Of a DNA stretch of 64,000 bases, positions 1,335 to 55,751 are shown piece after piece. Where the stretch lies: NCBI GenBank assembly GCA_040285745.1, contig JAUFOR010000004.1, positions 310,001 to 374,000 of the forward strand, written 5' to 3'. The stretch comes from Barthelona sp. PCE. Its lineage: Eukaryota. The notes under the pieces are model-generated. The model searched no databases. It had not been told where the DNA came from and was given only the letters and a program-made list of their open reading frames with translations. Position numbers and translations under genes: made by a program. How positions within the stretch are numbered: the stretch's first letter is position 1; each line of letters begins with the position of its first letter.

Positions 1335-2315
1335 ATGTCTCGTGATATTAGCAGGTTTACAAGAGTATGAAATACACATTTGACGATTTTGAAATTTTGT
1401 TGCGCTTCAATGCATAATATAGTTCTTTAAGCGTCTGTATCGAAACAAAGTGCTAACATTAAGCTCACAAAGCTCGGTGAAGGAGCCTATGGTGTCGTTT
1501 TTAAAGCGCGCGATAATGAAACTGGTAAAATTGTTGCCCTAAAGAAGATTCGTCTAGATATGCCCGAAGAAGGAACACCTTCGACCACCATTCGTGAAAT
1601 TTCTCTGTTACGTGAACTTAGCACCCACCCCAACGTCGTTCCTTTACTTGACGTTGTTCACACTGATGATCGTTTGTATCTCGTGTTCGAATATGTTGAA
1701 CAGGATCTGCGCAAGCATATCGATTCTTTCGGAAAAACAAAGTTAGAGCTGAACCTCATAAAGAGCTACGTTAGACAAATGCTAGAAGGACTTAAGTACT
1801 GCCACAGCCGTAGAGTCATCCACCGTGACCTCAAGCCCCAAAACATTCTCGTCAATCGTGAAGGACAGTTGTGTCTCGCTGATTTTGGTCTTGCTAGAGC
1901 TTTTTCACTTCCAATTAGACAGTACACGCATGAAGTTGTTACTTTATGGTACAGAGCCCCTGAAATTTTGCTGGGTACTGCTCATTACAGTTTAGCCGTT
2001 GATTTATGGTCAGTTGGTGCAATTTTTGCTGAATTAGTTAACAAATCTCCATTATTCCCTGGTGATTCAGAGATTGATGAACTCTTTAAAATATTTAAGG
2101 TTTGTGGAACCCCCACTGAAGATACTTGGCCAAAGGTTACTGAATTACCTGATTTTAACTCTATGTTCCCTGTTTTCCAACCCACTGATCTCTCTCGTAT
2201 CTGTCCTGACTTAGATGATTTAGGTCTTGATTTGCTTGGTAAGCTTCTTGAACTGGATCCTGTTAAAAGAATTAGTGCTAAAGATGCCTTAGAGCACCCT
2301 TGGTTTTCTCAATAA
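1335..2315 (+). CDS. CDK1: Cyclin-dependent kinase, CDK1/2 (cdc2) family; exons 1335-1364 and 1464-2315
   Basis: Splicing restores [25 protein letters not shown]...VALKKIRL...PSTTIRE...HRDLKPQN...DFG...[14 protein letters not shown]...GDSEID. Confidence 0.93.
1365..1463 (+). other. Spliceosomal intron, 99 nt, phase 0 (CDK)
   Basis: GTATGA...GCTAACATTAAG; removing it joins the start ATG in frame to the kinase G-loop. Confidence 0.9.
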
Positions 2316-18543: not shown

Positions 18544-20276
18544 TTAACGGTTACCCTTGTATACCTTAGGGGCGGGACCTGATGCGGCGGCGGCTCTGGC
18601 AGCGGCGGCACGTTGTTTAGCCTCGTTGGGATCGATGTTCTGGTTGGAAGAGGGGTTCTGTACTGTTTCATCAACGGAGAGGATCAGGGATGCGGCCTCT
18701 GTGGCAGCAGCAATGGCGTGCTTCTTAGAGTTGGCAGGTTCCCAGACATTGGCTTCAAAGGTGTTACAAACACCACCGTTGTTGATATCCACGCCGCACC
18801 AGTGCTCACCACTGAAGTGCTGTTCGCGGAGCTTGTTCAAAACGTCTGTGGGGTTAAAACCAGCATTCTCACAAAGCTGACGGGGGATAACCTCGAAAGC
18901 ACGAGCGAAAGCTGAAATAAGCAACTGGTTCTTACCCTTAATGGTGAGAGCGTGGGCACGAAGGCGCTTAGCAATCTCCATCTCAATGGCACCACCACCA
19001 GCAACAACTGTAGTGTTGTTGTAAGTGTGCTTAACGACACAAATAGCATCGTGCATGGACCTCTCGACCTCAGCAATGAATGCAGAAGCACCACCACGAA
19101 GGATGAATGTGAGAGCACCACCGGGACAACCGCGCAGAATCTCGACACGCTTTGAACCAATTTGCTTCTCATGGAAATCCTCGCAAGTTCCGAGAACGCT
19201 ATCATTAAGCTCGTTGACAGAGGACTGTAACTTACAACCTGTAGCAATACAAATGCGACGCATATCATCAGCGTTAACACGACCGGCACAGAAAATATCA
19301 TGATCGGCAAAGTACTGGGTAGCCAAATCACCAATGGGCTTCTGAGACAGAACAATGTTAGCACCTGAAGCTCTGATCTTATCGAGCTTATCATAGATAA
19401 CTTGCCATTCGGCCTCAACAACCTTCTGGTATTCCTCCATCGAGTTAACACGAATTTCAGCCTCGTTGCTCTCCTCCTTAAGCTCGAGCTCGACGTTGAG
19501 ACAGGCAATGGAAGGGTTAGCAAAGTGCTTGGGTTGTTGTTCGAAACCAGCATAAGAAAAAGTACGTTCGAAAGCACAACCATCAATTAGTTCGATATCT
19601 TCAAGAGAACCACCGGGGATCATCTTGACACCAATCTTATCGAGGTCACCGCCCTCAATGCGCTCGATAGCATCGACACAAAGAGAAGCGAGAGCATCTG
19701 AGTGAGAGGCAATCAACTTGGAGTTCATGGCGGTCTTAGCACATTTGATGAGGAGCTCACGCATTCTCTCAGCGTCGTCCTGGACAGAAATTGCAACGTC
19801 CTCAACGACATCAATAGCGAGTTGAGAAGCAATACGGTAAGCCTTGATAATAAGGTGAGGATGGACGTTATCTTCAATGAACTGCTTGGCTTGCTGAAGA
19901 AGGGAGCCGGCTAATAAGGTTACAGAGGTCGTACCGTCACCAATCTGGATGTCCTGTGAGTGCGCAACTTCAACAAGAGTTCTAGCTGCCGGATGAACGA
20001 CATCAAGCAGCTTGAGGAGTGTAGCGCCATCGTTAGTAACATGGACCTGTTGCTTTGTGCCCTTCTGACCAACATAGATAAGGGTATCCATACCACGAGG
20101 TCCGAGAGTTGTTTTGACAAGATCTACAAGTGCTTGTACACTGTTAATGTTGCTGATACACTGTGCTTTTCCTTGGGAAGTATCGGTTCCTTCTTTTAAA
20201 AGGATAATTCCTGAATATTAGTGTGAAAGCTCAACAATATAATGCGCAATACGCATAACATACCTGGATTCATCAT
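18544..20276 (-). CDS. CCT7: Chaperonin CCT/TRiC subunit eta; exons 20264-20276 and 18544-20210
   Basis: Spliced N-terminus MMNPGIILLKEGTDTSQG; TTLGPRGMD, TNDGAT, GDGTTSV, TFSYAGFEQQPK and ILSVDETV motifs. Confidence 0.93.
20211..20263 (-). other. Spliceosomal intron, 53 nt, phase 1 (CCT7)
   Basis: GTATGT...ACTAATATTCAG; removal gives an in-frame conserved N-terminus. Confidence 0.9.
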
Positions 20277-21734: not shown

Positions 21735-21755
21735 TTTATTCCTTATTTAAATAAA

Positions 21756-23774: not shown

Positions 23775-23776
23775 AA

Positions 23777-24136: not shown

Positions 24137-24195
24137 GAATTAGTTAAATAACACAATTACAGCAAAATATTAGTTTTTAAGTTCCTTTTCACCAT

Positions 24196-24780: not shown

Positions 24781-24807
24781 TTCATTGCTCTTTTATTTTT
24801 CATACAA

Positions 24808-25998: not shown

Positions 25999-26197
25999 TG
26001 TAGCTGTGCAAAAGGAAGTAAAAATTCAAACGTATAGAACATGAAGTTAAACAATATGTAGATGCCTGATCTGGTAGAATGTACACTGATTACTGGCTTA
26101 AACTCAAGTAAATGTATGCCGCACAAAAATATGAAGAGAAGCTCTGTTCGATTCTTAATAACTTCCTTTTTTATTTCTAACCTCTTTCATTTTATAA

Positions 26198-26278
26198 GTA
26201 TGTATTCCACCTATATAGTGTTCCCCGTAATGTAGGAGCGCCATATGATAGTACAAAATAAGGATATCTAACTTTAAG
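26198..26278 (+). other. 5'-UTR spliceosomal intron of the eS7 gene, 81 nt
   Basis: GTATGT...TCTAACTTTAAG fits the consensus of the six coding introns. It ends 2 nt before the ATG and follows a pyrimidine-rich leader. Confidence 0.75.
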
Positions 26279-26280
26279 AA

Positions 26281-26841: not shown

Positions 26842-26879
26842 GCTGTAGGAATAAAAATGAGGTATTTTACAACATAACT

Positions 26880-28742
26880 TTAGCGACCTAACATAGCTTG
26901 GAAGGATTTTTGCACCTTGAATAAAATGGATTGTTGAGTCTTATCATCCAATTCATAACCCAAAAGTGTCTCCTCTGCTTGATCTCTCTGTTCTTTTAAG
27001 CGTTGTGCTCTATTTCTGTTTTCTTTCTCTCTTCTAGTTTCTCTCTCAAACAATGATTGTAAAATGGTCTTTTCTGAACTTGAACTGTGGACAAGACTGT
27101 TACTCATATGCACAATATGAACATCACCATTCTTAACACCAACTGCAGCACGTTGACCACGACCCTGACCTGCATTCTCAATTTCAACCTTGTGAAGGCC
27201 TGCATTCGAAAGATGAAGGGAGATGACAGGTCCTGTCTGCTTATGAAGGACATCCCAGACATCCAAGTGACCATCCAGCCTTGTTGTAAGGAAGCATGAA
27301 GGACGTGTGGGAGACCACTGACCTGAAGTGAGGTAAGATGAGTGGTAGTGTGTCGTAACGATGGGGGAGCGGAGTGCCTCCTCTTCATACCAAACTTTCG
27401 CAACCCAGTCACCAACGGACAAGAAATAACGAGGAAACGCCGGGTTACGCGAGATAGAGAGAACAGGACCAAGGTGAGCGTTATCATACGCAGTTCCAAT
27501 ACGGTCCGTAACGCTCTTGACCTTTCTGTTACCGGGGAGAATGCTTCCCTGCTCTGTACCAATCAAAAACTTATTAGGTCCTGCGCTGATGTCGTAATTG
27601 AGACATACACCGCCGTGGAGCATACCCTGACCATGTGCCTGTAATGAGAGGGATTCTGTAGGTTCGGAGAGCTTACGGATATCCCAGAACAAGGCCTTTC
27701 CATCGGTAGAGACAGAGAGCAACTCACAAGCACTCTTCGATTGAAGCCACCTCAGGGCAAAAACGGGATCCTCGTGTGAGTGTTCGATAGCAGAACTGTC
27801 AAGCACTGAACCACTCTTACGAACATCCCAAACTGTAATGAGACCATTCTGACAACCACCAGCCAACAGATGCATATCACGGGGGTTGTACTGCAACGAA
27901 ACGACGGGCCATGGGGGTGTGAGAGTCATGAGAGGTGCGTTAGGGCTGTTTAGATCCCAAATATAAGAAGCACAACTGGTATCTTCCAATGAAGGCTGGA
28001 AAGTTGACTCAGAGTAAGCAACAGCGAGCTTTGATCCGTCATCAGGGTAGAATGAGATATCATAAGCTGTTCTGCGACCTGCACCATGAGGATCGTGTAG
28101 TAAGACAAGAGATCTGGCTGATGGAGGTTCAGATGCCGCCTCGTCAGCAGCCTCTTCAACAAAGTAATCCTCGTAGATATCAAACGTCTGGTTCTGGTTG
28201 AAAGGTTCCATTGCTTTTCCTGATAACTTAACAACAGCATTAATAAACTTCTCATCTTTCTCAACTTTCTTTCGATAACTGCTTGTATTCTCAGCCGAGG
28301 TGGGGTCGATCGTCTTCGGCCAGCCTCCCTCAATGTGCTGCATACCTGTGTGCATGACCTCGTGTCTTTCAGTGTTAATCTAAATGTTAATTATTGAATT
28401 TTTTCGAAACTTTTGGTATTATCGAACTTGGTTCTTCATCAGCAATAACATTCTCCTTTTTCCTTGGACCGTTGGGTATCCTGAAGAAGAAATGCCTGTG
28501 ACACTCAAACCACATCACAAATAACCAAATAAAAATATTCATACTTCGTGAACAGAGTAGTCGGCAATACAGCTCACACCGATGCTTCTACGCACCTTTT
28601 GCATGAACTGCTCCTGCTTTTGAGGTTCAGGAGGGATATCAAGCAAAGAAGCTGACATCGCTTCAAATTGAGCTGTAGGGCGTCCAAAACTCTTTCTAAG
28701 TCGCGTGTACTCGCGTACAATGTCCAATGATAATGTCGCCAT
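26880..28742 (-). CDS. DNAI2: Axonemal outer-arm dynein intermediate chain 2 (IC2/ODA6); exons 28545-28742 and 26880-28379
   Basis: Spliced ...SVHE|INTERHE...HIEGGWPK...RKKVEKDE, WD40 repeats, FLIGTEQG, FLSVGDW, WSPTRP and FERETRREK. Confidence 0.92.
28380..28544 (-). other. Spliceosomal intron, 165 nt, phase 0 (DNAI2)
   Basis: GTATGA...ATTAACATTTAG; joins two conserved DNAI2 segments in frame. Confidence 0.9.
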
Positions 28743-28757
28743 CCTGTGAGAAAACTA

Positions 28758-28767
28758 TGAAAGGGGT
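28758..28767 (-). promoter_or_regulatory. Representative core-promoter/initiator-like element ACCCCTTTCA
   Basis: The same CCCWTTCA motif lies 0-50 nt upstream of many ATGs in the window (see findings). Confidence 0.55.
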
Positions 28768-29470
28768 TTAATATCAAAAACGAGAATCGATGTTAATAGA
28801 GCATATACGCAACGTGAATTGCGGATGACTGTACCAGCACGTGCACTCCAACCCTTCGTCATTCTCAATACGAGTAAATACCCTGCCAAAAGAGTTTTTC
28901 CTTTCAAAACACAAGATTATTCGCGGTAGATGAGTGTTAAGTACTATACTACAGCGGCTGTGGGAATTAATATGTCTTATAACATACCAAGTTCAACATT
29001 CTACTTTTTTACAGTTGCCTTCACATTAAACTCACCACAAACACAATAAACTCATATTTCGTATACTTTTATACCTTAATATCCTTCCAAATTGATTTTA
29101 ATAATGAAAAAGGTTAGTTATTTTTCTTTGAGGACATAGTAACTCTTATTTGATCAATGTATCCAGTTTCTGTTTCAATGTACTGGTTCACTGCCACAAC
29201 ACTGAGTAAAACACTGTTCTCAAAGTACATGTTCTTAAACAATTTCAATTCTCAAGATGCCGGGGGGGGTGAGAAGATCATTTACAACTTTGCCAGATGA
29301 ATGAAGGAATGATCTCAAGTTTAATTCCAAGAAAATCAGATGGCAAGACAATGACAAATCTTGCTTACTCTTTCCAACCTTTTCCACATAGTTTCCTTTC
29401 AAGGAGTATCTATTATATCTACCGAAACGGGTATTTTCTTCATTTATATCTTGAATATCATTAAATAGCC

Positions 29471-31870
29471 ATGCCACTAGATATTCAAAGCACACGAACA
29501 TTTAAGTTCGTAAGAAAGCGTCGTATGGTCGATACGGGATGGGTTGCACTTCTTGCTAGCAAACGTTCAATGATTGATTTTCTTTACATGTGGGTTCCAA
29601 TAACGATAATGATTGTTGTTGGTCTATGGAGTCATTTTAACTTCAGATACGGCTCTTTCCAGAGAACATGTGTTCCCATAGAAAGCACTCTGTCTCTAGA
29701 TACCCAGTTCGATCGCGCAGGTTGGAGTTGTGCTTCAATCATGCCGCGTTTCTGTATTCCAACCCTCAACGATACGTTCCACATGACGCATTCATTCTGG
29801 GGCGTTGATTATGAACGAGCACATGATATATGCGTCAATAGCAAGAATAATAATGTTACATTTTATAGCTACTCGGTCGACCCGCATCTCTATCACCCAT
29901 ACAGTCGAGCAGAGTTAGACAGCTATGACTACACCCTGTTTGGGTTTGCTGGGCTTGTTATCCTACCAGCCATTATCCTTTGGGTAGTGTTGCTTATCTC
30001 CCGAATGATGAAACCTAAATTGACAAGGTTCAAGAGATTGAGGAAGTTGATTATGCTCGATGGGGAATCAGAAGACGACACTGCGACCATTGAAACGATG
30101 GAGTCCACAGACTTTACTGAAACAGACAGTGAATATGGGGAATATGGAGAAGAAGAATATAGACGAGAGAAAAAGAAAGAGAAAAAGAAGCATGAGGTTA
30201 TTCTTTCGCTGGATAAGGGTGTCATTTTAAATGATGCGTTGTCTTATCCTCTGAAAAAAATTGACGCATCAAATTTTGATATTGAAACTTTCGCCAAACA
30301 CATCGTTACACCCAGTGATGTTTCTATTCGTGAAAAGATGTTCGGTGGGATATTCAACAGGGTGTTCCCCAACGTAAAGCAGAAGTTTATCAGAGATGTT
30401 ACAACTATGGATGCCAAACTCCCGTATTCGCTTCCGAGAGTTGTTCTCAACCTCGTGGCCTACGGTGCATATGCCGCCATTGGAGCGTCTTTGGTCTCAC
30501 TGGGCTTTGGTATATCGAGGAATGGACGTTTATGGAGAGCTCACATCAGTCATTGGGCATCAAACATATCGACTTTTGTCTCGTCATTTGCAATGTATTA
30601 CTCATATTATATCGTCATCGTTGAGGTGCTGCAGCAGGTGTTCAAGGTTGATTTCAGAGCTGTTGCTGTCACCGCTTCCATCAAGATACTGCTCCCTGTT
30701 TTCATTTACAATTTATTCGTTTATATGTTCCAATTGTTCACGGAGAAGACGTTCATCTGGGAATTCATGGATAAATACTACATTCATATGGTCTTTGAGA
30801 TGTTGCACATCATCCTGCTTCCAGTTGTTTGTTCCATTCTCACCCGCTCATTCAGGTTTCATATTAACAAGTACGGTGATCTAATGAAGCTGCACACCAA
30901 AACTAGTGAGGATACAGATTCTCAGAAAATTAAGGAACCAGTTGTAAGACAAGAGACCAAAAAAGGTCAACGATTCAAACCAAAACACGAGCGTGATCTT
31001 GGTGCTTTCAGGCCCCGCAAGGCCGTGTACCTGGCCATCATGCAGGGCATTGTCGTCATCATTTTCTGGGTTATGATTGTTTTTTCGAGCACATGCTATG
31101 ATTGTGGGTTGCGCAAATCACTCTCACTAAAAGTGGATGAGTGTTGTGCAACAGGCGGTGCCTTCCTCCTTAAGGGATTTCCTGGTAATATGGATGGACC
31201 GTGTGTCAGCTGTAACCGTTCCGTTATGCTTTTGATTGTTTCAGTCGTTATTCCATTCTTTGTCACAACCTTATCATTCGCAGCATATGATATCTCCATT
31301 GGTATCTCTGAAAACGTTATGACGGTATCAACTGCTATCGCTATGCCTTTGTTCGGGTCCATGTTACTACACGGAGAAGTCTTATTATTAAACAGCACAT
31401 CCCTCTTTTTAAGTTCTTTATTTTTAATAGTAGAACAGTTGTTTTCGTTAGCATTTAAAATCTCATACCCTGTGTATGCTATCAAATGGCGTAAACGAAC
31501 TTTTTATCCAGAAACTTACATGACAATGAATTTCTTGTTGAGTGCGATGCATTATATGGTTCTATTCTCGTTACCCGCGCTGTATTTTTCAATTTCGTTC
31601 CAATCTAATGTGGTGTTGGTTGATGGAAGCTTTTTCAAAATTTTATTTGTTAGATTGCTTATTATCTTTGTTTCTGACGTGCTTTTTTACCTGTATGCCA
31701 GGTCCAAGATTTCAAATAATGTTTCTAAACTGCTTGTGGGTCTTCGTAAATTCTTGTTGAAGATTTTGGTTACTTGCGGTATTGGTACAATTCTGAGCGT
31801 TACAAAGTTAATGATTTTCCTCATCCAACAGCGACCTACTCTTGATGTTTCTTATGATGTTCCTTTTTAG
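29471..31870 (+). CDS. Multi-pass membrane protein of unknown function (799 aa)
   Basis: About 12-14 hydrophobic segments, two Cys-rich loops and an acidic/basic cytosolic loop. Confidence 0.7.
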   Translation: MPLDIQSTRTFKFVRKRRMVDTGWVALLASKRSMIDFLYMWVPITIMIVVGLWSHFNFRYGSFQRTCVPIESTLSLDTQFDRAGWSCASIMPRFCIPTLNDTFHMTHSFWGVDYERAHDICVNSKNNNVTFYSYSVDPHLYHPYSRAELDSYDYTLFGFAGLVILPAIILWVVLLISRMMKPKLTRFKRLRKLIMLDGESEDDTATIETMESTDFTETDSEYGEYGEEEYRREKKKEKKKHEVILSLDKGVILNDALSYPLKKIDASNFDIETFAKHIVTPSDVSIREKMFGGIFNRVFPNVKQKFIRDVTTMDAKLPYSLPRVVLNLVAYGAYAAIGASLVSLGFGISRNGRLWRAHISHWASNISTFVSSFAMYYSYYIVIVEVLQQVFKVDFRAVAVTASIKILLPVFIYNLFVYMFQLFTEKTFIWEFMDKYYIHMVFEMLHIILLPVVCSILTRSFRFHINKYGDLMKLHTKTSEDTDSQKIKEPVVRQETKKGQRFKPKHERDLGAFRPRKAVYLAIMQGIVVIIFWVMIVFSSTCYDCGLRKSLSLKVDECCATGGAFLLKGFPGNMDGPCVSCNRSVMLLIVSVVIPFFVTTLSFAAYDISIGISENVMTVSTAIAMPLFGSMLLHGEVLLLNSTSLFLSSLFLIVEQLFSLAFKISYPVYAIKWRKRTFYPETYMTMNFLLSAMHYMVLFSLPALYFSISFQSNVVLVDGSFFKILFVRLLIIFVSDVLFYLYARSKISNNVSKLLVGLRKFLLKILVTCGIGTILSVTKLMIFLIQQRPTLDVSYDVPF

Positions 31871-37400: not shown

Positions 37401-38467
37401 AGTGGTACATTACTGAGAGTAACCAACCAATGGTAACCACTCGCCTCACCCCTAACGGGCTCTCTCTAGAGCCGTGGCACCCGTCCCATGCTGAATCCGG
37501 TAGCTCAAGTGGATTTTCGCTTGAAGCTCTTGAGCAAACATTCGTAGCGAACCAGAAAAACAAGGTTCCTGTATTATTTGACGTTACAAAAACTGATGCC
37601 AACAAGGCTGTACATGAAGCTGCGCTTATTGGTGTCACTGAGCTCGAAATAGACGGTAAAATTGTACCTCTGCGTGCAATTGAGTTAAAGTTGCGAGCTG
37701 TCGTCAAGATTCCGCGCGTCACCTTTGATGAGCGCCAAGTATTGCGCTTCACATCACTGCTGGATACTGAGTTCAAGCAAGAGGTGCGTACAATGCGCAT
37801 CGCTAACCCCTCAACGTTCCCCGTTACCTTTGATCTGGATTGTGAGGGTCCACTCAACATTCTGTCAGTAGAGAAGCCCACTGGTCTCCTAGGCCCATCA
37901 TCTATACAGCTGCAACCCCTTGAGGCGTGTATTGTCACGCTTCAACCGTGCTTGACACCACAAACGATTGGAAACTATGCTTACAAGGCTCTCCACAGAA
38001 TTGAGGCAGGATTAGTTGTTCAGTTCAACAAAACATCAGTTAAGCAACAACTACCTTGCGTGATACATGTTGTGGAACCAGAAGCCACTGTTCACAATGT
38101 TGACTTTGGAACTATGGAAGTTGGCACAATACACAAACTTCCATTAATTCCTGCTGTCCATAATGAGATAGCAGTGCATTGGCGTGTCAGCCCTGAGCCT
38201 GTTGAGTCGGATTTCATCCAATTCACGGATACAAAGGGTGTCATGAGTGGCATTGCGATAGCGGAAAAAGCAGACGTTGTAGGACTTCTCAGTATGCCAA
38301 CCAGATCGCCTAGAAGTAATTTCCATCGTTCTCTTGGTGTGACAATGATCACTTGCTCACCTGAAGAAGCAGTAGGAGATTTTTCTTATGATTTTGACTT
38401 TGTTGTTACAAATGGATTAAAGGAGCAGGTTCATAAGTTCGTTGTGAGCGGTAATGTTGTTTTGTAA
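34403..38467 (+). CDS. DLEC1: DLEC1/FAP81-like ASH (Ig-like) repeat central-apparatus protein (alternative start 34370)
   Basis: FKDY...LRIIPPGSPFF...LAPGMS...IPLRAYRPP matches the first DLEC1 ASH domain; repeated IDFG/LDFG + N-x-S/G beta domains follow. Confidence 0.72.
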   Translation: MSEESHEETRVAEEPQNALLDLDAIMSEAVQKFENLSKSVDPIFIEDDNNEPTYLRETLQSRQKSRESNRSARSINSVPAKKPVHLTKKGKKVEKKVRPTMSEIEEGQKVLNRMKTRWEVLRPIEPPKFDIVPSRIDFKDYLVNSNYIYPVTITNTSGQMHSLRIIPPGSPFFGIQNIKYASNTDGRLAPGMSMEFEVVLYRKDRAQDNDWDVSDVVEIKTLSDTITIPLRAYRPPTTCSVLLPKNHVLNAAVHNTLTAKLCFETASLLEQTILLDVSSDHATVEFSPQEFVIDESQEIDVELKIHFHKIGEHTLNFAFLNVDAIFETIQSFKVQALMHHLQFENKKLDLSLSKNIIAGESFDIDVPIVAGTDLPLVLKPEMIIRESSGFAFKPLKEIVFNRSGTKQFSIGGTISALRSFDLDVCFHMTSSVGSFSLSKLLVLHISFNVTIPKVSLVTNTLYFNDIYTGSMAQKNISIRNDSTVSLTMKCELQGLSTDTIVGSIRSSVKLGPSRTIRIPVEVVPMICGHSFVNVHLTTSTNQEFDVPVIVCAMAPTLVTSPGVIDFGIIPATFSESAYEASIDLAATTSLAIDDVALDPAARLSDRISFELHDHPDVTRLVTRLTVGSQPEHIDTYVEVPLGAGMVPIRLVGSVVRPIVTMDPIMNSFELYEGASEMVNVIVSIETPVDVELEWQMAEITEDNFDVEIIPDKFILGPDKLSQNVSFVVRGADSFSHNNVQQLQASLYSHTYPLLKECGVSLNVHLAPPLVAIREGKPERVPSPASFDSLSMFTLEGRSSSRPVSGEPQSLRMKTRSELGLSIDTLDFGVVRLSQPATKHIALHNFGPVDVEFTFDAEYLIAKEVKASKRNRRTMLKSTRVKEAKHKMFKKIETPWCVEMIDTVVVPTCKTIMVEVKYVQFVPGDFSVPLHISNKTGSFNETVSLKASVVENVVTLQPSALGLDVKHNTLLWNNVMPSVNTSPVRRTLTFVNACNLPVAVKWYITESNQPMVTTRLTPNGLSLEPWHPSHAESGSSSGFSLEALEQTFVANQKNKVPVLFDVTKTDANKAVHEAALIGVTELEIDGKIVPLRAIELKLRAVVKIPRVTFDERQVLRFTSLLDTEFKQEVRTMRIANPSTFPVTFDLDCEGPLNILSVEKPTGLLGPSSIQLQPLEACIVTLQPCLTPQTIGNYAYKALHRIEAGLVVQFNKTSVKQQLPCVIHVVEPEATVHNVDFGTMEVGTIHKLPLIPAVHNEIAVHWRVSPEPVESDFIQFTDTKGVMSGIAIAEKADVVGLLSMPTRSPRSNFHRSLGVTMITCSPEEAVGDFSYDFDFVVTNGLKEQVHKFVVSGNVVL

Positions 38468-38649
38468 ATGAATCAAGTGTTTCACAAAACGAAATTTTGA
38501 AGGTACTATTATTATGAGTAAGCTGTTCACTAATTAATTTACTTTGAAATGATTTTAAAATACAAAGAGCACCCGCGGCATAACAATAAAATTATGATTA
38601 AACTTAGTTCGGACTTGAAAAATGTTACCTAAAAATTAGACATTCAAAA

Positions 38650-38715
38650 AAATCAGACTTAGCACGTGGCTTTTCATCAGCATTTCAGACGAAAGACGGT
38701 TTGTGTCATCATAAA
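38650..38715 (-). ncRNA. Box C/D snoRNA, snR39/snR59 (SNORD32/51)-like, predicted guide for LSU Am807 (yeast numbering)
   Basis: Box C ATGATGA (38706-38712), D' CTGA (38685-38688), C' CTGATGA (38674-38680) and D CTGA (38653-38656). The D' guide ACCGTCTTTCG pairs with conserved LSU CGAAAGAUGGU (11 bp, one G-U), and the D'+5 rule hits the Am807-equivalent A. Confidence 0.85.
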
Positions 38716-38972
38716 GTTATCATACATCAAATATTCTGGAAACTAAATGCACATCTATTCTTACATCCAAAACGTGATGTAAGAATGGCTAGACCCATAT
38801 TTGTCACCATTTCAACTGCAATTTAATAATTACAAGTTGAATGGGGTAAATAAAAGGAATGCAAATTTCAGAGTGTCTAAAACATTCGATACCCAATCGA
38901 GCATTCTACATTCTTAGTGCATATCATATAACAGTGATGATGCACTTCAACAGTATTGATAAAAATGAGTTA

Positions 38973-41900
38973 CTATTTACTTACCAATTCTGTAATATTA
39001 CCGAAGCATCCGCGTGGCACCTTAGCCCCATGTGCAAGCTGGACTGGCTGACTAACATGACAAATTTCTCCAGACACTGGGTTAATCGCTAATGAAGTAT
39101 GAGCTAAGATCGAACCTTCAACACGCATCTGTGGCACAGTCAGTTCCAGTTCACAGTTGGCGCACTGTGTCTCTGCCAGGCTGAATCCGTCAATAAGCAA
39201 TCCGCTGTTTCTTAAACGCCTTACATTCCCCTCTTTTGCTTTAATATTGTTGTTAAACATAATTAGAGTGTCGCTAAACATCGAATGCATGCTTCCTGTC
39301 TCAAGAAGCATGTTGGCCAGTAGTAAAGGCAATTCAGGAAACGAGACTTCATTGGGAACCATCGATAAGAATATGGCAAACTGGTCATGTATGGCAAATC
39401 TTGGCAACATCTTCAGTACAGCGGCAATGTATGAGTGATCGCCCTGCTCCTTGTACTTGGCAAGAGTGAACTGATATAAGCTCTTATATAGGTTACCTAG
39501 ATGGTTTTTGTGAATGAAAAAGATGGCGTTGGAGATGATACACTCCACTGGATCTCCGTATATATTCTTGTCCAACTGTTTGTTTTCAAACGTAAAAGAA
39601 CGAAGGATTAGATTTAAACCTTCTTTAAAGCGGCCGCAAAAAATATAGACCCTCAAAAGAGCATTCAAATAGACTGTTATCCTCTCCTCGTCACCACTGC
39701 ACCTGTCTATCATTTCCAATAGCGGAGATTCGAGCAGCACTTGGTCGAAGTCACAGACGTTGTTAAGGAACTCGGTTATGAATGGCGCATCGTACTTGAT
39801 TATCAAACTAACAAGCAAGAAGTTCAACGGTGCGTATTGGATTGGATCCGAAGCGAAGAGCTCCCTTGTTATTCTAAAAAAGAACTTCTCCAGTAAGGGG
39901 TTGAAATTATAGTCCTCTACTGGTACTATTCTCTTCAAATTGGATTGCCTATCGTCGTGAACCATGGAATCGACGAGCAAACGACGCAAACTAACTGTTT
40001 TTCTATCCAACTGCAGCTCCATTGACAATTCCTCAATGCGTGTCACCGCATCTTTGGCAGGTGTGATCAACCCCCTCACCAGCTCCACGGCGTTGAACAT
40101 TTCAATGTGCTTTATCACCTTATTAACAGTCTCATCAATATCAATTGTGAGCAGCGTGTATAAGTGGTAATGGCTCCTTGTGATAATTGATGCGATACCC
40201 TCGTGGATTTCACCGTTGGGTGTGACCATCACTTCAAACACATCCTCGTGTTTCAACTCCACAGCTTGGTGGAAAGCCTTGGGAAGATCATCTGTAAAAC
40301 GCCAAAACTTCCACAATATCTGTGTGTATAAAAGGGAAACACGCTCATCGTGGTGGAGAACGTTCTGCAGCCTGGCCTTCTTGTGTTCCAGGCATGTTGC
40401 GAGGACAGAGACATCGAACAACTCCTCCTTCAAAATCTTGAGCATGACCTTGTGCAACAGCTCTGCATTCTCAAGTGTGTCCTCCCTGTCAATGAGGGAT
40501 CTAATCATATCTGTACGCTGATCCTTGTTTAAAACCAAAAATAGCTGCTGTCTGAGGAAACTATCATTCTCACATATCTCATCAGACTGGAAGACACAAT
40601 CAATGTTTCCATCAGTCTTGATACGCTCGATCCAACTCGCACACCCTGCCTTCATCTCCAAGCTGTAGAAGTCTATGTCGATCGACTTAAAGAACTGCAT
40701 GAATTTTGAATAAAACTCCTCAATGGGTAGTTGGGTGTATATGTAATTCAAGAATGGGCTACAGTGGGAGACGAAGTACTTTGTAATCGAAACCTGCTCT
40801 GTGTTCAGAGAGAAGTTCCAGAGCTCGCATGCCACATTGATAGAGGCATGTGCGACGTCAAGGAAGCAGTCAACCACCTCGCCCACGATCTTGCGGATAC
40901 GTTGATCTTGCGAGTTATCGTTGTAAACATCAATAGTTTTTCTCAGAAAATCCTTGAGAGATGCCAATAATAGCTGGCTGTACGCCACACAGCGGGTGTC
41001 GTCGAGGTGGTGCATGACCGCCACGTTATCACAGGAGGCCAATATTTTTCCAATGGCTGCACTGCGCTCCAACATCGATGACTTTTGAAGACCTTGTAAA
41101 ACGAGCACCGAACGATCCACAACCATTTTAATTAGCTTAATGTGGTTCTCCAGTCTGATCTCCGGGTACTTATGACGCGCAACGGAGACAAACACCATGG
41201 AGTCAATGGGATCCAGTTTTTTTATATGAGACTCAACCTGGTCTGGCAAGCTGAATGAATTCCAGAAGACTATGCGCCTCGGGCCGGTAACAAACAACAC
41301 ATCTTGTAGACCGTCAACCGCCCTGAAACATCCTCTGGCTTCCTCCGGAAAAGAAATGTCTTGTGTAGAGGTGAGCGTGTTCTTATTGACCAGCATAAGT
41401 TGTATTATGAACCCATCCTCGCCGTGCGTTCTCAGATCGATCGATCCGTCGTCTTGACGTCGGGAAATGAGCCTCTCTGCCAAGACACATTTTTCATCTT
41501 TGATGGTTTCGTCCAACGCCTTATCATCAACTCCATGACTCTTCTGCTCGATATGGTGGAGCAATTCAGCCGATGTGACATAGAGAATAAGTAGGGCGTC
41601 ATCCCTAATCCCCTTGATCTGGCCGTTCCATATACCCATGCAAATACCCGGGACATGCACATAATTAACCTTAAGCTCAGACTCGACTGTGCTGTAAGGG
41701 TTGAGGATGAAAACTCCACTACCATGACTTAGATAATACTTCCCTTCGCTTTCAAGAGCAACACTCTTAAAAACTCTATACTCCAAATTTGTTTTCGTTT
41801 TCAAACGTTGCTCTCTCCTCTCCTTCTGCTCGTTGATGAAAAAGATCTTTAGATCACTAACAAAAATTGTAAAGCGATCAAAAAAATGTATCTGACGAAC

Positions 41901-42562: not shown

Positions 42563-43547
42563 TTATTCCTCGGGATCGTTGTACTCTGCGTCGTTCATCC
42601 AAAGAGTCAGATTGTCACGCAATAACTCCATAATGAGGGTGGAATCCTTCACGGAAGCATCAGGAAGACTCTCGTAATCAGTAATGGCCTCGTCAAAGGC
42701 ACGCTTAGCAAGATCTCTAGCGCGATCAGGCAACTTCAAGATCTCATAGTAGAAGACAGAGAAGTTAAGAGCAAGACCCAAACGAATAGGGTTGGTAGGG
42801 GCTAATTCACCATCTGCAATCTCGGTGGCGCTCTCGTAGGCCTTAAGTGACTCTTGAGCAAAAGTGCTCTCGGCTTCCTTATCACAAAACTCAGCAAGAT
42901 AACGGTAGTAATCACCCTTCATCTTAAGGAAGAAAACCTTGGACTCTTGAGAAGAAGCGGCGGGAATCAAGTTCATGTCAATGACATCAAGAAGCTCCTT
43001 ACAAATATCTGCGAGTTCACCCTCAATCTTTCTCTTGTACTCAGAGAGCATCTCGACGCGGTGGCTGTTGCCCTTCTTAAGTTCACGCTGCTCGCTCTAA
43101 ATGTTAGATATCCTAAATAAAAACAAAGAATCAAAAGCTTCTTCGATTCTTTTGGTGTGTAAGTCATACCATGCTAATATATCTGCATGAAGCTCTTCTA
43201 GCAGTGATCTTGTTCTTCCAAGCGACTAAATGTAAGAGAAACCATAAAAAATACGCCCGTTACGTATAACGGAAATAACATACCAGAGAGGAGATTGCGC
43301 TCATCAACGCTCAGTTCAACACCCAACTTGGAGATCTCAGTCATATACTGAACCATTTCTTCTAAAAGTCAGTTGCTAAAAATGATATAGGTTTCTTTTA
43401 ACCTTAAACATGGTTAATTGATGCTAAAAGCATCAGCCACGCTGAAAAAAATATTAAAAGAAACCTTCAAAAGAAGATACCGTATCTCTCAGAGTTCTCA
43501 GAGACCTTGGCAAGGTAAACCAAATCTTCACGAGTGTAGTCCTTCAT
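42563..43547 (-). CDS. 14-3-3 protein; exons 43481-43547, 43284-43361, 43170-43225 and 42563-43096
   Basis: Spliced [26 protein letters not shown]...[19 protein letters not shown]...[12 protein letters not shown]...[17 protein letters not shown]...[16 protein letters not shown]. Confidence 0.95.
43097..43169 (-). other. 14-3-3 intron 3, 73 nt, phase 0
   Basis: GTATGA...TCTAACATTTAG. Confidence 0.9.
43226..43283 (-). other. 14-3-3 intron 2, 58 nt, phase 1
   Basis: GTATGT...TCTTACATTTAG; restores RNLLSVAWKN. Confidence 0.9.
43362..43480 (-). other. 14-3-3 intron 1, 119 nt, phase 1
   Basis: GTATCT...ACTGACTTTTAG; restores ERYEEM. Confidence 0.9.
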
Positions 43548-43920
43548 TAATGTGTATAAGAAGTATGAAAAGGAATAAAAAGGGTATGCAACACAATTGT
43601 CTGGATCTTTTCGTACAACGTTTCCATATGCGTCCAATCTGGTGTGTAGTGGGAGATCCACCAAATTATCCTGTATCCCGATCCTTTACAGCTGTTGGCA
43701 TACAATATAACACTTTTATTACTATGTTCAGCTGACGATCCTTATAAGTCCTTCATGTCTTTTTTAAAGCAGTTAAACTTGAAGTTGGACATGCCCAGCA
43801 ACGCGATTTGCTGAATTCTATATTTGGTGTGAGATAAATTTCATCTTCATTGCTTCGCTTTTTGTTCCTCCCAGTAAATGAGAAATGAGAATCACCATAA
43901 ACCCCCACAATTCAGTATCT

Positions 43921-51601: not shown

Positions 51602-51994
51602 CTATGAGTATTCAAACATCATACGATCGAGTTCTTGCCGCCTCTGTTCAAATGCATCCATATCCTCCTGGGTCATTGGTTGTTCGGCCAATTTCTTCGA
51701 CTTTGTTATCTTTCTCTTCTGTTTAGTGACATCTGAAAGACGTGTGCGCACGTCTTCAGATAGATGGCCAAAACCAAGCTCTGTAATAGCAGAAAAAACA
51801 TGAGACCCATTTAACATTGATGACTTGCTCTCAGAACTAGTGTTGACTGAGGCAGCACCAAGAGTTAAGAAGAACTCATTCGCCAAATCAGTAAGAAGAA
51901 AGTTTGCTTCCTTAGATATCGTTATACTATCATCCAGTGTACGTTTTACAACGCGTTTTACGGCTGAGATTGGGAAATGTGATAGTTGGGACAT
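51602..51994 (-). CDS. H2B-type histone-fold protein, NC2-beta/DR1-like (DPB4/POLE3 not excluded)
   Basis: FPISAVKRVVK...ISKEA...EF...HVFSAITELGF, plus a tail resembling DR1. Confidence 0.7.
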   Translation of the reverse strand: MSQLSHFPISAVKRVVKRTLDDSITISKEANFLLTDLANEFFLTLGAASVNTSSESKSSMLNGSHVFSAITELGFGHLSEDVRTRLSDVTKQKRKITKSKKLAEQPMTQEDMDAFEQRRQELDRMMFEYS

Positions 51995-52367
51995 TGTAAA
52001 TTAAAAGAAGGTGAGAATTGCCAGTACCGAACCAATGCAATAGTAACCGTGTTCTTTGACATCGTTTCTTTGTTAGAAATCCTCATTTCGTCTCAACTAC
52101 CAGATAAAGTGTAAAACTAAAAAGAATCATACACAGGTAAACATAAAAGGCTTATTCGTTTAATTGAGCATGAGCCGCTCACTAAAGATGAATGATAGTT
52201 CAACATTTCACTTACAAAAAGGAAAGAAACTTATCATGACACAAAAAACATGATTAAACATCTGCTATAAAGAAAATCACCCTTTTTGCTGCACAACTCG
52301 CGGCATACATTTTTTCTCTCACCAAACTTTACTTTAAAAGCATAAAAGCATTTGCAACACTTTAATT

Positions 52368-53498: not shown

Positions 53499-53563
53499 CT
53501 TCTTGTTAATAGTAAATCGATAGTTTCTTTTTTTATGTTACTTCTTTTTTCTACTCTTCCATA

Positions 53564-55033
53564 ATGAAAGAATTGGACTTTGAGCAGAAATTTGTTACAC
53601 ATCAGAAGTTTGGACGTAAAGCATGTGAAAGTGCCTTAAGAAAAGGTTTAGTGTACGTTTTTATTTCTGGATATGATTATTGGGCAAAAATCTTTAATGA
53701 TAATGTACTTCCGGATAATTTTACATTCGTGCAGATGTTCCGTGAGTGTATGCAACGTGACTGTGAATTTTACATAAATCCTACGGCTGCTACAACCGAG
53801 TTCATGAATAGTGTTGACAGTGGGTATATCGACCGCAACAAGACGCAGAAGAGTACAAAAAAGCCAAAGAAGCAGAGAAAAGAAGATACTCCAAGGAAAC
53901 CAAAAAAGCGTGCCTCAGATAATCTGTTGGATGTGCTATTTGTTGGTGGTAAGGATCAAGTGAAGAAGACAGATGAAGCGAAACAAGAAATTAAGACCCC
54001 AGCTACCGTATTAGACAAGAATATTGATGTTGATAGCGATACAGATGATGATACTGTCAGCGTTTTCTCTTATAACTCTCGTTTTACAGACCCTGGAAGA
54101 CTGGTCATCACGAATAACGCACAAAACGTTACCCAACAGCAGCAGCAAATACAACAGCAAGATGTGCCTCAGTTCTCACTAGAAGACATTTTAAACTGTT
54201 TTGGCTCACAGATCATGCAGTATGTAGAGAACCTGAACATAGCCAATGAGCGTGCTTGTGCGGATCTTAATGCTAGAATAGAGGAGAACCAGGAGCAGAT
54301 CAAAGAAATGGAGACAAGGTTAACAGAAAAAACGAACGAAGGTTATGAGAAAGGCCAACGTGATGCACAAAAGCAACTAAGCAGTCAGATGAACTCTATG
54401 AAAAGTAAGTTTACAACTGCTGAGAAGAAGAAGGATGATGAAATCTTGAAGCTACGTGAAGCCTTGGCAGCAGCAGAGAAGAAGCTTAGTGATCAGCAAA
54501 AAGCTCAATTTGTGAATGATGCCAGTCATGTGGATCAGATGCGTTCCCAGATGGAGGAAATTGACAAGCTAAAAGAACAGAATAGACAAGGTAAAGAGGA
54601 GCGTAAGAATTTGAGGAAGCAAATTCACCAAATGAGTGAAGAGCACCGAGCTGAGCTCAAAGGGATGCAGGAAGAGCTAAGTGCAACCAAGGAGGAGGCC
54701 ATTGAGGCACAGAGAAAGCCCCAAACACGGATGCAGAACAAGAAAGTCTATCGATCTGATGGATCCTCGATTTCTATCGTCCATGCTCAAGCCCCAGCGA
54801 CACGTGTGACTCATTCCACTGTGAAGAAGGTATCCGACAAGGGATTTGTTGATATTAGCACCATAACGGCAAAGAGGCCTAAACAGCAGCAGCCTCGTCA
54901 ACAGAAAGCCAAGCCGGAGCATGATGCTGTTCAAGAGGTTAAGATAGAGGAAGAAATGAAGGCCCGCGCCAAGCCCAAGCGAAACAACAACAAAAGGAGT
55001 ACAAAGAACAGAAAGAACAAAAAAAACAACTAA
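53564..55033 (+). CDS. Coiled-coil hypothetical protein (489 aa)
   Basis: Long E/K/Q-rich heptad region and a basic C-terminus. Confidence 0.7.
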   Translation: MKELDFEQKFVTHQKFGRKACESALRKGLVYVFISGYDYWAKIFNDNVLPDNFTFVQMFRECMQRDCEFYINPTAATTEFMNSVDSGYIDRNKTQKSTKKPKKQRKEDTPRKPKKRASDNLLDVLFVGGKDQVKKTDEAKQEIKTPATVLDKNIDVDSDTDDDTVSVFSYNSRFTDPGRLVITNNAQNVTQQQQQIQQQDVPQFSLEDILNCFGSQIMQYVENLNIANERACADLNARIEENQEQIKEMETRLTEKTNEGYEKGQRDAQKQLSSQMNSMKSKFTTAEKKKDDEILKLREALAAAEKKLSDQQKAQFVNDASHVDQMRSQMEEIDKLKEQNRQGKEERKNLRKQIHQMSEEHRAELKGMQEELSATKEEAIEAQRKPQTRMQNKKVYRSDGSSISIVHAQAPATRVTHSTVKKVSDKGFVDISTITAKRPKQQQPRQQKAKPEHDAVQEVKIEEEMKARAKPKRNNNKRSTKNRKNKKNN

Positions 55034-55041
55034 GTTTTTAT

Positions 55042-55701
55042 TCATGCTGCCACAGCGTTTCTAGTCTCTTTCTCAACCTCTTCAACAGCATCAACCTCCT
55101 CAACAACAACATCAGAAGGAGTATTATTGAGCGTTTGATTTTGTAAAGCTTCCTCTTCAGCAAATTCCAACTCCCAGGCGTTCATCTCATTCTCAATTTC
55201 TTCATCCATGTCAACTAGAGCATCATCCGTCAAGCTAAGAGCTGCAAAAGCCTCCTGGATATCGCGTTGCTCATCAACAGCGTCCTGTGCAGCATCAAAA
55301 ATGTCTTCAATGCGTTCAATGCTAATTTCTTCATTGAGCATATTGAGCAAAGTAGTACCTGATTCCATTGCCACAGCAACTTCTTGTGTCATGATGGCAC
55401 TCTCTGTGTTTGTGATGAGTGTTTCGACGTTCATCAAATGATTTTCAGCTTCTGAAAGTGCACGTTCTTGCATTTTCTTACGCTTAAGACACATTGTAGC
55501 CTTTCGTCGATCATTGGCCTTCAACGCCTCTCTAGCAAGGTCCATTTCGGTATCCAAAACTTTCTCAAGCTTCCTTGAATACCTCTTCAGACGATCCCTC
55601 TGACGCTTAAGATCAAGCATTGCTTTATCTTTATCTGTGACTTCAACAACCGGAGTCGTGTCCTCTTCGCCCCCAAAAATGCTTGAAATCCAGGTTCCCA
55701 T
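55042..55701 (-). CDS. VPS20: ESCRT-III VPS20/CHMP6
   Basis: Myristoylation-type start MGTWIS, VTDKDKAMLDLKRQRDRLKRY and a Snf7 fold. Confidence 0.9.
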   Translation of the reverse strand: MGTWISSIFGGEEDTTPVVEVTDKDKAMLDLKRQRDRLKRYSRKLEKVLDTEMDLAREALKANDRRKATMCLKRKKMQERALSEAENHLMNVETLITNTESAIMTQEVAVAMESGTTLLNMLNEEISIERIEDIFDAAQDAVDEQRDIQEAFAALSLTDDALVDMDEEIENEMNAWELEFAEEEALQNQTLNNTPSDVVVEEVDAVEEVEKETRNAVAA

Positions 55702-55751
55702 GAAAAGTAAGGGAAAAAAATAATACAAGAAATTCAATAATATTTACACCG

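What the first reader, a model, noticed from the sequence alone, without database searches (positions are those of the whole stretch)
43097..43480. All seven introns fold to a near-constant effective length of about 38-47 nt
Seen: intron lengths run from 53 to 165 nt, yet each holds an internal stem whose removal leaves a similar span. 14-3-3 i1 (119 nt) has a perfect 13-bp inverted repeat at 43389-43401/43454-43466 plus an inner 7-bp hairpin, leaving 41. i2 (58) has CCGTTA-TACG-TAACGG, leaving 42. i3 (73) has AAAGAATC/GATTCTTT, leaving 45. CCT7 (53) has a hairpin at 20242-20256, leaving 38. RPS7 (81) has a stem at 26212-26247, leaving 45. DNAI2 (165) has TTTGGT(T)ATT/AATACCAAA spanning 28412-28529, leaving 47. 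CDK (99) has an imperfect GACG/CGTC-closed stem at 1382-1435, leaving 45. Established: diplomonad (Giardia, Spironucleus) long introns use base pairing to shorten the splice-site distance. Inference: this spliceosome may measure a fixed 5'SS-to-branch-point distance and tolerate extra sequence only as RNA structure. I chose the stems by eye, so selection bias is possible.
Basis: partly seen in the sequence, partly recalled or inferred. Interest (0 to 1): 0.75.

Follow-up and report, generated by a model that had tools for sequence, protein, structure and literature searches.

The report
Intron hairpins in a tiny protist genome
Seven short introns in this protist DNA can each fold into a hairpin, but only one hairpin (perhaps two) is stronger than shuffled sequence gives, so the apparent constant folded length is mostly what any sequence of this kind would show.

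Summary
Three window products are 100% identical to NCBI proteins labelled Barthelona sp. PCE.

The constancy is not beyond chance. Shuffled introns folded the same way collapse to 28-36 nt whatever their raw length. The spread across the seven is 7.6 observed against 7.4 shuffled. No intron brings its 5' splice site nearer the branch point than its shuffles do.

Only 14-3-3 intron 1 has clear excess structure: z -5.3, a 13-bp perfect core, the most structured of 5,114 windows. Intron 3 is marginal. The longest intron (DNAI2, 165 nt) and the CDK intron (99 nt) are at chance.

Real features:
- A Giardia/Trichomonas-like branch site fused to the 3' splice site in 7 of 7 introns.
- An unpaired AT-rich zone of about 20 nt upstream of it.

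The idea is already published for diplomonads and yeast.

The parts
43362..43480 (-). 14-3-3 intron 1, 119 nt. Its 5' splice site is GTATCT, the only one of the seven with C at +5. Its branch motif is CTGAC at -11..-7.
   Evidence: Removing it joins exon 1 in frame, and the product then aligns over residues 1-75 with a yeast 14-3-3 protein. It is absent from the public model PCE1_002165, which starts at residue 25 of the conceptual product.
43383..43469 (-). 87-nt irregular hairpin inside intron 1. The perfect 13-bp core is 43389-43401 / 43454-43466. An inner 7-bp hairpin lies at 43419-43435.
   Evidence: Constrained fold -28.9 kcal/mol against -14.2 +/- 2.8 for shuffles, z -5.26, 0 of 1000 shuffles as good. 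Longest perfect inverted repeat with separate arms in the 64 kb. Rank 1 of 5,114 GC-adjusted 100-nt windows. 13-bp perfect stem reached by 0 of 300 shuffles.
43481..43547 (-). 14-3-3 exon 1 (67 nt, start codon at 43545-43547). It encodes the conserved first helix and is missing from the public protein model.
43226..43283 (-). 14-3-3 intron 2, 58 nt. GTATGT ... CTTAC at -11..-7. Hairpin at 43256-43273 (6-7 bp, 4-nt loop).
   Evidence: The splice reproduces PCE1_002165. Fold z -1.36, p 0.10. 6-bp perfect stem reached by 6% of shuffles.
43097..43169 (-). 14-3-3 intron 3, 73 nt. GTATGA ... CTAAC at -11..-7. 12-bp hairpin at 43125-43152 (8 perfect pairs, then further pairs including G-U).
   Evidence: The splice reproduces PCE1_002165. 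z -2.47, p 0.016. Beaten by 10 of 200 shuffles. 8-bp perfect stem p 0.007.
28380..28544 (-). DNAI2 (axonemal dynein intermediate chain 2) intron, 165 nt. GTATGA ... TTAAC at -11..-7. Closing stem spans 28412-28529.
   Evidence: The splice gives PCE1_001931 exactly. Fold z -0.38 and -0.37, with 68 of 200 shuffles as good. Longest perfect stem 7 bp, equal to the shuffle mean.
26198..26278 (+). Predicted 5'-UTR intron of RPS7, 81 nt, ending 2 nt before the ATG. GTATGT ... CTAAC at -11..-7. Hairpin at 26212-26247.
   Evidence: Motifs only. S7e family match on the downstream ORF. Fold z -1.24; 31 of 200 shuffles as good.
20211..20263 (-). CCT7 intron, 53 nt. GTATGT ... CTAAT at -11..-7. Hairpin at 20242-20256.
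   Evidence: The splice gives PCE1_001920 exactly. Fold z -0.04.
1365..1463 (+). CDK-like kinase intron, 99 nt. GTATGA ... CTAAC at -11..-7.
   Evidence: The Pkinase domain starts at the first residue of exon 2, and no in-frame ATG is available there. Fold z 0.00; 169 of 200 shuffles as good.
38629..38725 (-). Candidate eighth intron (97 nt, GTATGA ... CTAAT at -11..-7) in an ORF-free gap. It holds box C/D snoRNA motifs at intron positions 14-20 (C), 38-41 (D'), 47-52 (C') and 70-73 (D).
   Evidence: Weak hits to six C/D snoRNA families, E 0.64-9.6, all below gathering score. No excess fold: z +0.45 and +0.91.

Best explanation
The window most likely comes from Barthelona sp. PCE. It holds seven (probably eight) short spliceosomal introns of the intron-poor metamonad type.

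Shown from the sequence:
- The 5' splice site is extended (GTATG in 6 of 7 introns, GTATC in i1).
- A branch motif YTNAY sits at a fixed place, -11 to -7, so the branch A is 8 nt from the intron end in 7 of 7.

The near-constant 'effective length' of 38-47 nt is mostly not a measured quantity. It is the sum of three things:
- The two splice motifs, which must stay single-stranded.
- An AT-rich zone of about 16-21 nt upstream of the branch motif that pairs less than chance. This is shown here, though the test was chosen after seeing the data.
- Whatever is left after the middle folds, which shuffled sequence of this composition does just as well.

One hairpin is real: the 87-nt hairpin of 14-3-3 intron 1. 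Inference: it acts as a zipper stem. It holds this intron's weaker GTATCT 5' splice site 11-14 nt on one side and its CTGAC branch site about 13-19 nt on the other, turning a 106-nt linear gap into about 21-25 nt. The 12-bp hairpin of intron 3 may do the same.

The unpaired zone upstream of the branch site would be where U2 snRNP proteins need naked RNA. This is an inference by analogy with yeast A-complex modelling, where stems cannot form within 20 nt of the branch point.
For: Motifs and fixed spacing.

Shuffles collapse to the same lengths.
- Exterior unpaired length is 28-36 nt on average for all seven raw lengths.
- The sd across the seven is 7.55 observed against a shuffle mean of 7.4, and 55% of shuffle sets are as tight. 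The result is the same at 20 C: 4.5 against 5.5, 30% as tight.
- With helix picking and a free target, 36 of 400 shuffle sets are as tight.
- Ensemble distance from 5' splice site to branch point is 20.3-31.2 nt observed against shuffle means of 17-25. The sd is 3.6 against 5.0, and 17.5% of sets are as tight.

Unpaired zone. Summed pairing probability of the 20 nt upstream of the branch motif is 1.82, against 3.12 +/- 0.34 in shuffles (0 of 300 as low). GC there is lower than in the rest of the interior in 6 of 7 introns.

Intron 1 hairpin: z -5.26; 1 of 200 shuffles as good; top perfect inverted repeat; rank 1 of 5,114 windows.

Literature. [quoted passage not shown]
Against: - When helices are picked towards the fixed target of 43 nt, the real set is tighter than the shuffles: sd 2.86 against 7.87, with 0.2% of sets as tight, and 0 of 500 shuffle sets put all seven within 38-47. 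That target came from the data.
- With the first 7 and last 27 nt forced single-stranded, the fold reproduces 45, 38, 45, 47, 41, 40, 45 (sd 3.07 against 6.89, p 0.016). With 10 and 31 nt the effect is gone (p 0.63).
- The intron middles fold better than 25 matched native control segments per length: mean z -2.62 against -0.07 +/- 0.41, and -2.07 without i1. All seven z values are negative. The crop (7/27) was set after seeing the stems. Some general tendency to hairpins may therefore be real.
- No RNA data, no orthologous introns and no genome-wide sample were available.
Confidence: 0.6

Rival explanations
1. This reduced spliceosome needs a fixed single-stranded span of about 40 nt and tolerates extra intron sequence only when it is sequestered in a stem. 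On this view all seven stems are functional.
For: - The stems named are all helices of the lowest-energy fold.
- With a fixed target, the set is tighter than shuffles (0.2%). With 7/27 nt held open, p is 0.016.
- All seven middle z-scores are negative.
- The candidate eighth intron would leave 13 + 24 = 37 nt if its C and D boxes are brought together in a snoRNP (positions; my arithmetic).
- The same pattern is claimed for Giardia (35-45 nt), S. vortens (40-42 nt) and T. vaginalis (25-44 nt) (section 8 of PMC6679479).
Against: - With a free target, 36 of 400 shuffle sets match the observed tightness. Without picking, 55% match.
- Structural distances are not shorter than in shuffles in any of the 7 introns.
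- DNAI2 (165 nt) and CDK (99 nt) show no excess pairing.
- There is no unstructured reference class of 38-47 nt in the window.
- The effect vanishes when the open ends are set to 10/31 nt.
Confidence: 0.2
2. The intron 1 hairpin is a relic of how the sequence arose, with no role in splicing. It could come from a small element with terminal inverted repeats (an introner or MITE-like insertion) or from a palindromic duplication.
For: - The 13-bp arms are perfect, as in a young inverted repeat.
- The good stems cluster in one gene rather than tracking intron length.
Against: - There is no second copy of the arm in the 64 kb at up to 1 mismatch.
- No direct repeat flanks the arms; the flanks are themselves complementary and extend the stem (my reading of the fold).
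- The interior is itself further paired (3 + 7 + 7 bp), which a plain pair of terminal repeats would not need.
- The rest of the genome could not be searched.
Confidence: 0.1
3. The intron 1 hairpin is an intron-encoded small RNA (a precursor of a microRNA-like RNA, or another structured RNA), or a gene-specific regulatory element of 14-3-3 expression.
For: - It is a long, stable, irregular hairpin of about 87 nt.
- Another candidate intron in the window appears to host a box C/D snoRNA, so introns here can carry RNAs.
- All three 14-3-3 introns have the best perfect stems in the set.
Against: - No Rfam family matches the hairpin. The only hits in 43050-43600 have E 1.7 and 9.6 and lie outside it or over exon 1.
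- It contains no C/D or H/ACA boxes.
- No expression data are available.
Confidence: 0.07

Closest known systems
Structured 'long' introns of Giardia, Spironucleus and Trichomonas (Hudson et al. 2019, BMC Evol Biol 19:162, PMC6679479; abstract and sections 5, 8, 13 and 23 read)
   Same: - Intron-poor metamonad with an extended 5' splice site.
- Branch site fused to the 3' splice site at invariant spacing.
- A 5'-UTR intron in a ribosomal protein gene.
- Internal stem-loops that leave a 'single-stranded distance' of about 35-45 nt.
   Different: - There is no class of short, uniform, unstructured introns to set the reference length.
- The 3' motif is YTNAY-WTTNAG, not CTRACACRCAG.
- Only 1-2 of 7 stems exceed shuffled controls here.
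- That paper's main text mentions no shuffled or random control (0 occurrences of 'shuffl' or 'random'). Its supplements were not seen.
Yeast zipper stems (RPS17B; Rogic et al. 2008, PMC2536676, abstract read; the 2025 NSMB in-vivo probing study, PMC12350175, passages read)
   Same: [quoted passage not shown]
   Different: Yeast criteria ask for 42-85 nt of total linker. Intron 1 here leaves only about 33 nt (14 + 19). Yeast zipper stems are supported by probing and mutants; nothing here is.
Intron-hosted box C/D snoRNAs in non-coding host genes (general knowledge, recalled)
   Same: The candidate eighth intron holds C, D', C' and D boxes, with 17-nt guide spacers, in an ORF-free gap.
   Different: No Rfam hit reaches gathering score. 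No terminal stem was seen. The rRNA target could not be checked.

Membership tests
[quoted passage not shown] | GT-AG boundaries with an extended conserved 5' splice site (GTATGT-like) | tested here: met
   GTATGA or GTATGT in 6 of 7 introns, GTATCT in i1; AG at all 3' ends.
[quoted passage not shown] | Branch motif at an invariant distance from the 3' AG | tested here: met
   YTNAY at -11..-7 in 7 of 7 introns, and also in the candidate eighth intron. The branch A is 8 nt from the end, the same spacing as the Giardia consensus quoted in PMC6679479.
[quoted passage not shown] | Removal from mRNA shown | tested here: inconclusive
   Four introns match the public protein models exactly. i1 and the CDK intron rest on protein homology and logic. 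RPS7 rests on motifs only. No RNA reads could be obtained.
Diplomonad 'structured long intron' pattern (Hudson 2019) | A class of short, uniform, unstructured introns sets the reference length | tested here: not met
   The shortest introns are 53 and 58 nt. None falls at 38-47 nt.
Diplomonad 'structured long intron' pattern (Hudson 2019) | Long introns carry extended stems that bring the collapsed length to the reference length | tested here: inconclusive
   Stems exist in all seven. They exceed shuffles only in i1 (strongly) and i3 (marginally). The collapsed lengths are matched by shuffles.
Zipper stem (yeast definition, PMC12350175) | [quoted passage not shown] | tested here: met
   For i1, the stem starts at intron position 12 and the perfect core at position 15. 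It has 13 perfect bp within 17.
Zipper stem (yeast definition, PMC12350175) | [quoted passage not shown] | tested here: not met
   For i1, the core ends at position 92 and the branch A is at 112, leaving 19 nt. The full stem ends at 98. The total linker is about 33 nt. The threshold was derived for the yeast spliceosome.
Zipper stem (yeast definition, PMC12350175) | Forms in vivo and affects splicing | not testable with these tools
   No probing data, mutants or orthologues are available.
Box C/D snoRNA (candidate eighth intron) | C (RUGAUGA), D', C' and D (CUGA) boxes in order, with guide-length spacers | tested here: met
   Intron positions 14-20, 38-41, 47-52 and 70-73, with 17 nt between C and D' and between C' and D.
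Box C/D snoRNA (candidate eighth intron) | Match to a curated family at gathering score, or guide complementarity to rRNA | tested here: not met
   The best hits are 21.2 bits against a gathering score of 40, with E 0.64-9.6. There is no rRNA in the window, so the guide could not be tested.
Introner / MITE-like insertion (i1 hairpin) | Terminal inverted repeats plus target-site duplication plus many copies | tested here: inconclusive
   Inverted arms are present. No flanking direct repeat was seen. There is no other copy in the 64 kb. The genome could not be searched.

The most novel reading that the evidence does not exclude
In Barthelona sp. PCE, reported as the smallest known genome of a free-living eukaryote, the spliceosome allows only a fixed budget of naked RNA. 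Every extra nucleotide must be packed into a hairpin or a snoRNP. On this view intron length is free but single-stranded length is not. The 14-3-3 intron 1 hairpin and the snoRNA-bearing intron would be two solutions to the same constraint.
Probability: 0.2. Interest if true: 0.55.

Novelty: new member of a known kind. Interest (0 to 1): 0.3.

Why it matters
Barthelonids are sister to Fornicata, and their introns have not been described in the papers I could search. 'Barthelona' with 'intron' gave 8 papers, 6 listed, none about intron features. 'Barthelonid' with 'spliceosom' gave 1 unrelated paper. The genome paper uses 'intron' once, in its methods.

A branch site fused to the 3' splice site, at Giardia/Trichomonas spacing, in this lineage widens the distribution of that trait.

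The practical lesson is methodological. Collapsing introns by picked stems gives a 'constant' length in shuffled sequence too. The published diplomonad and parabasalid claims, which show no shuffled controls in the text I read, deserve the same test.

The 14-3-3 intron 1 hairpin is a clean candidate for a stem-disruption and rescue experiment. The public 14-3-3 gene model appears to lack its first exon.

Tried and rejected
- Whole genome: none is held for this window, so no genome-wide intron set could be built.
- Sequencing runs: none was listed for window 20000-29999 and no RNA holder was listed.
- Related loci: a metagenome scan with 14-3-3 exon 4 gave 206 pattern matches, none confirmed. 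An exact scan for the two intron 1 arms gave 0 matches. No covariation test was therefore possible.
- Rfam at gathering score over the whole window gave 0 hits, and no tRNAs were found.
- Rfam at E up to 10 gave only chance-level hits: around the 14-3-3 introns; in the DNAI2 intron, where one snR78 hit (E 0.48) runs across the 3' splice site into the exon; and in the CDK intron.
- A relaxed motif scan for further introns gave 104 motif pairs. Outside long ORFs only the known introns and the 38629-38725 candidate look canonical. 29159-29331 (+) and 51939-52221 (+) have poor motifs and were not pursued.
- Earlier findings of this scan: nothing on this genome or on this sequence, and one unrelated hit by words.
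- Rejected idea: that the DNAI2 stem (6 + 3 bp with a bulge) is special. Shuffles give a 7-bp perfect stem on average.

Full report
**Source and gene content**

The window is compact eukaryotic DNA of about 41% GC under the standard genetic code. Three of its products are 100% identical to NCBI proteins labelled Barthelona sp. PCE: CCT7 (PCE1_001920), 14-3-3 (PCE1_002165) and DNAI2 (PCE1_001931). The genome paper for that organism reports 10.2 Mb, 40.3% GC and 5,064 proteins. It places the organism in a clade sister to Fornicata (PMC11316075; section 6 and passages read). It says nothing about intron features. Source names confirm DNAI2.

**Are the introns real?**

| Intron | Coordinates | Length | Support |
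|---|---|---|---|
| CDK | 1365-1463 (+) | 99 | Kinase domain starts at the first residue of exon 2; no in-frame ATG there |
| CCT7 | 20211-20263 (-) | 53 | Splice gives the public protein exactly |
| RPS7 | 26198-26278 (+) | 81 | 5' UTR, ends 2 nt before the ATG; motifs only |
| DNAI2 | 28380-28544 (-) | 165 | Splice gives the public protein exactly |
| 14-3-3 i1 | 43362-43480 (-) | 119 | Homology of exon 1 |
| 14-3-3 i2 | 43226-43283 (-) | 58 | Reproduces the 220-aa public protein |
| 14-3-3 i3 | 43097-43169 (-) | 73 | Reproduces the 220-aa public protein |

The public 14-3-3 model begins at a methionine inside exon 2, so it omits exon 1 and i1. With i1 removed, the conceptual product gains 24 residues. 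It then aligns without gaps, residues 1-75, to the start of a fission-yeast 14-3-3 protein (P0163). So i1 is very probably a true intron and the public model is truncated.

All seven introns start GTATG, except i1, which starts GTATC. All carry YTNAY at -11 to -7, followed by four bases and AG. This is the branch site fused to the 3' splice site known from Giardia, Trichomonas and Spironucleus, at the Giardia spacing (PMC6679479, sections 5 and 13).

**Are the stems there?**

Yes.
- an outer 5-bp helix in the CDK intron;
- three more pairs in i1;
- a second weak hairpin in i2.

Taken as they come, the folds leave 30, 38, 45, 47, 32, 27 and 45 nt.

**Is it more than chance?**

*Fold energy against 1000 dinucleotide shuffles of each intron interior.*

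| Intron | z |
|---|---|
| i1 | -5.26 |
| i3 | -2.47 |
| i2 | -1.36 |
| RPS7 | -1.24 |
| DNAI2 | -0.38 |
| CCT7 | -0.04 |
| CDK | 0.00 |

The separate fold tool, unconstrained, agrees. Shuffles fold at least as well in 1 of 200 (i1), 10 (i3), 41 (i2), 31 (RPS7), 68 (DNAI2), 123 (CCT7) and 169 (CDK). At 20 C the picture is unchanged.

*Longest perfect stem, with the fraction of 300 shuffles that reach it.*

| Intron | Stem | Fraction of shuffles reaching it |
|---|---|---|
| i1 | 13 bp | 0 of 300 |
| i3 | 8 bp | 0.007 |
| i2 | 6 bp | 0.06 |
| CCT7 | 5 bp | 0.19 |
| DNAI2 | 7 bp | 0.64 |
| CDK | 6 bp | 0.66 |
| RPS7 | 4 bp | 1.0 |

The good stems therefore belong to the three 14-3-3 introns, not to the long introns.

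*Constancy of the collapsed length.*
- Shuffled introns collapse to means of 28-36 nt whatever their raw length.
- The sd across the seven is 7.55, against a shuffle mean of 7.4; 55% of shuffle sets are as tight.
- To imitate picking by eye, I let each helix of at least 4 bp be kept or opened and chose the value nearest a target. With the target fixed at 43, the real set looks special: sd 2.86 against 7.87, with 0.2% of sets as tight and 0 of 500 sets entirely within 38-47.
- That target came from the data. With the target left free for each shuffle set, 36 of 400 sets are as tight.

*Structural distance from 5' splice site to branch point, averaged over the ensemble.* The observed values are 20.3-31.2 nt. 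Shuffle means are 17-25 nt. No intron is shorter than its shuffles (fractions 0.43-0.94). The spread is 3.6 against 5.0, and 17.5% of sets are as tight. Collapse to a narrow range is therefore a generic property of folding sequences of this size and composition.

**What is non-random**

*The intron 1 hairpin (43383-43469).* It has 17 pairs at the base, including the 13-bp perfect core, then helices of 3, 7 and 7 bp. Its arms are the longest perfect inverted repeat with separate arms in the 64 kb. Its 100-nt window ranks first of 5,114 by GC-adjusted fold energy. Introns make up only 648 of the 64,000 nt. [quoted passage not shown]

*The zone upstream of the branch motif.* The 20 nt there pair much less than in shuffles: summed probability 1.82 against 3.12 +/- 0.34, with 0 of 300 shuffles as low. 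That zone is poorer in GC than the rest of the interior in 6 of 7 introns. I chose this test after seeing the folds.

*Intron middles against native controls.* The middles (positions 8 to L-27) fold better than 25 length-matched native control segments per intron. Mean z is -2.62 against -0.07 +/- 0.41, and -2.07 without i1. The crop was set from the observed stems, so this overstates the effect. With 7 and 27 nt held open, the folds give 45, 38, 45, 47, 41, 40, 45 (p 0.016). With 10 and 31 nt, p is 0.63. The tightness therefore depends on a parameter tuned to the data.

**Most likely reading**

The number 38-47 is the sum of fixed single-stranded ends and whatever remains after the middle folds. 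The fixed ends are the 5' splice-site region, the unpaired zone of about 16-21 nt, and the 11-nt branch and 3' motif. Shuffled sequence folds the middle equally well.

This fits modelling of the yeast A complex. There, stems cannot begin within 10 nt of the 5' splice site or end within 20 nt of the branch point (PMC12350175, passages).

The intron 1 hairpin is best read as a zipper stem of the kind studied in yeast RPS17B (PMC2536676, abstract). The intron 3 hairpin is possibly one too. This reading is an inference: no RNA data or orthologues could be obtained.

**Known or new?**

The idea itself is published. Hudson et al. 2019 state that base pairing in long introns constrains the splice-site distance to that of the short introns: 35-45 nt in Giardia, 40-42 nt in S. 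vortens and 25-44 nt in T. vaginalis. Their method picked 'convincing' structures among the three best MFOLD predictions. Their main text mentions no shuffled or random control. The 2023 Giardia re-analysis also mentions none (PMC10711314, passages). Supplements of these papers were not seen.

What is new here is only the lineage. The shuffle result applies equally as a caution to the earlier claims, which I did not re-test.

**Side findings**

- An ORF-free gap (38465-38975) holds a candidate eighth intron at 38629-38725 (-). It has canonical splice motifs and box C, D', C' and D motifs with 17-nt spacers. It gives weak hits to six C/D snoRNA families. It has no excess fold.
- Just upstream of that intron, 38751-38850 (-) is the third most structured window in the 64 kb and includes an 11-bp perfect hairpin.

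Noticed in passing
window 38629-38725 (-): Candidate 97-nt intron in an ORF-free gap, with canonical splice motifs. It carries box C, D', C' and D motifs with 17-nt spacers, so it is probably an intron-hosted box C/D snoRNA in a non-coding host gene. Rfam hits to six C/D families are all below threshold.
   Followed up: partly
window 38726-38900 (-): Strongly structured stretch just upstream of that candidate intron. Its fold energy is -45.3 kcal/mol over 175 nt, it holds the third most structured 100-nt window of 5,114, and it includes an 11-bp perfect hairpin at 38757-38786. There is a weak H/ACA-like Rfam hit (E 6.5). It may be another small RNA of the same host transcript.
   Followed up: partly
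window 43481-43547 (-): The public 14-3-3 protein model (220 aa) starts inside exon 2. An upstream 67-nt exon encoding the conserved first helix, joined by intron 1, would add 24 residues. The public annotation therefore looks truncated.
   Followed up: yes
window 54916-54949 and 55066-55099: Longest inverted repeat in the window (34 nt, 85% complementary, arms 116 nt apart). It lies across the ends of two convergent ORFs, 53516-55030 (+) and 55045-55743 (-).
   Followed up: no
all seven introns: All introns lie at the 5' end of their genes: in the 5' UTR, or within the first 67 codons. This is the position bias usual in intron-poor genomes.
   Followed up: no
window 24181-24777 (+), 8314-9045 (-), 62462-63895 (-): Nitroreductase, PAPS-reductase-domain and acyltransferase-3 genes sit among typical eukaryotic genes. 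In anaerobic protists such genes are often of bacterial origin. This was not examined.
   Followed up: no
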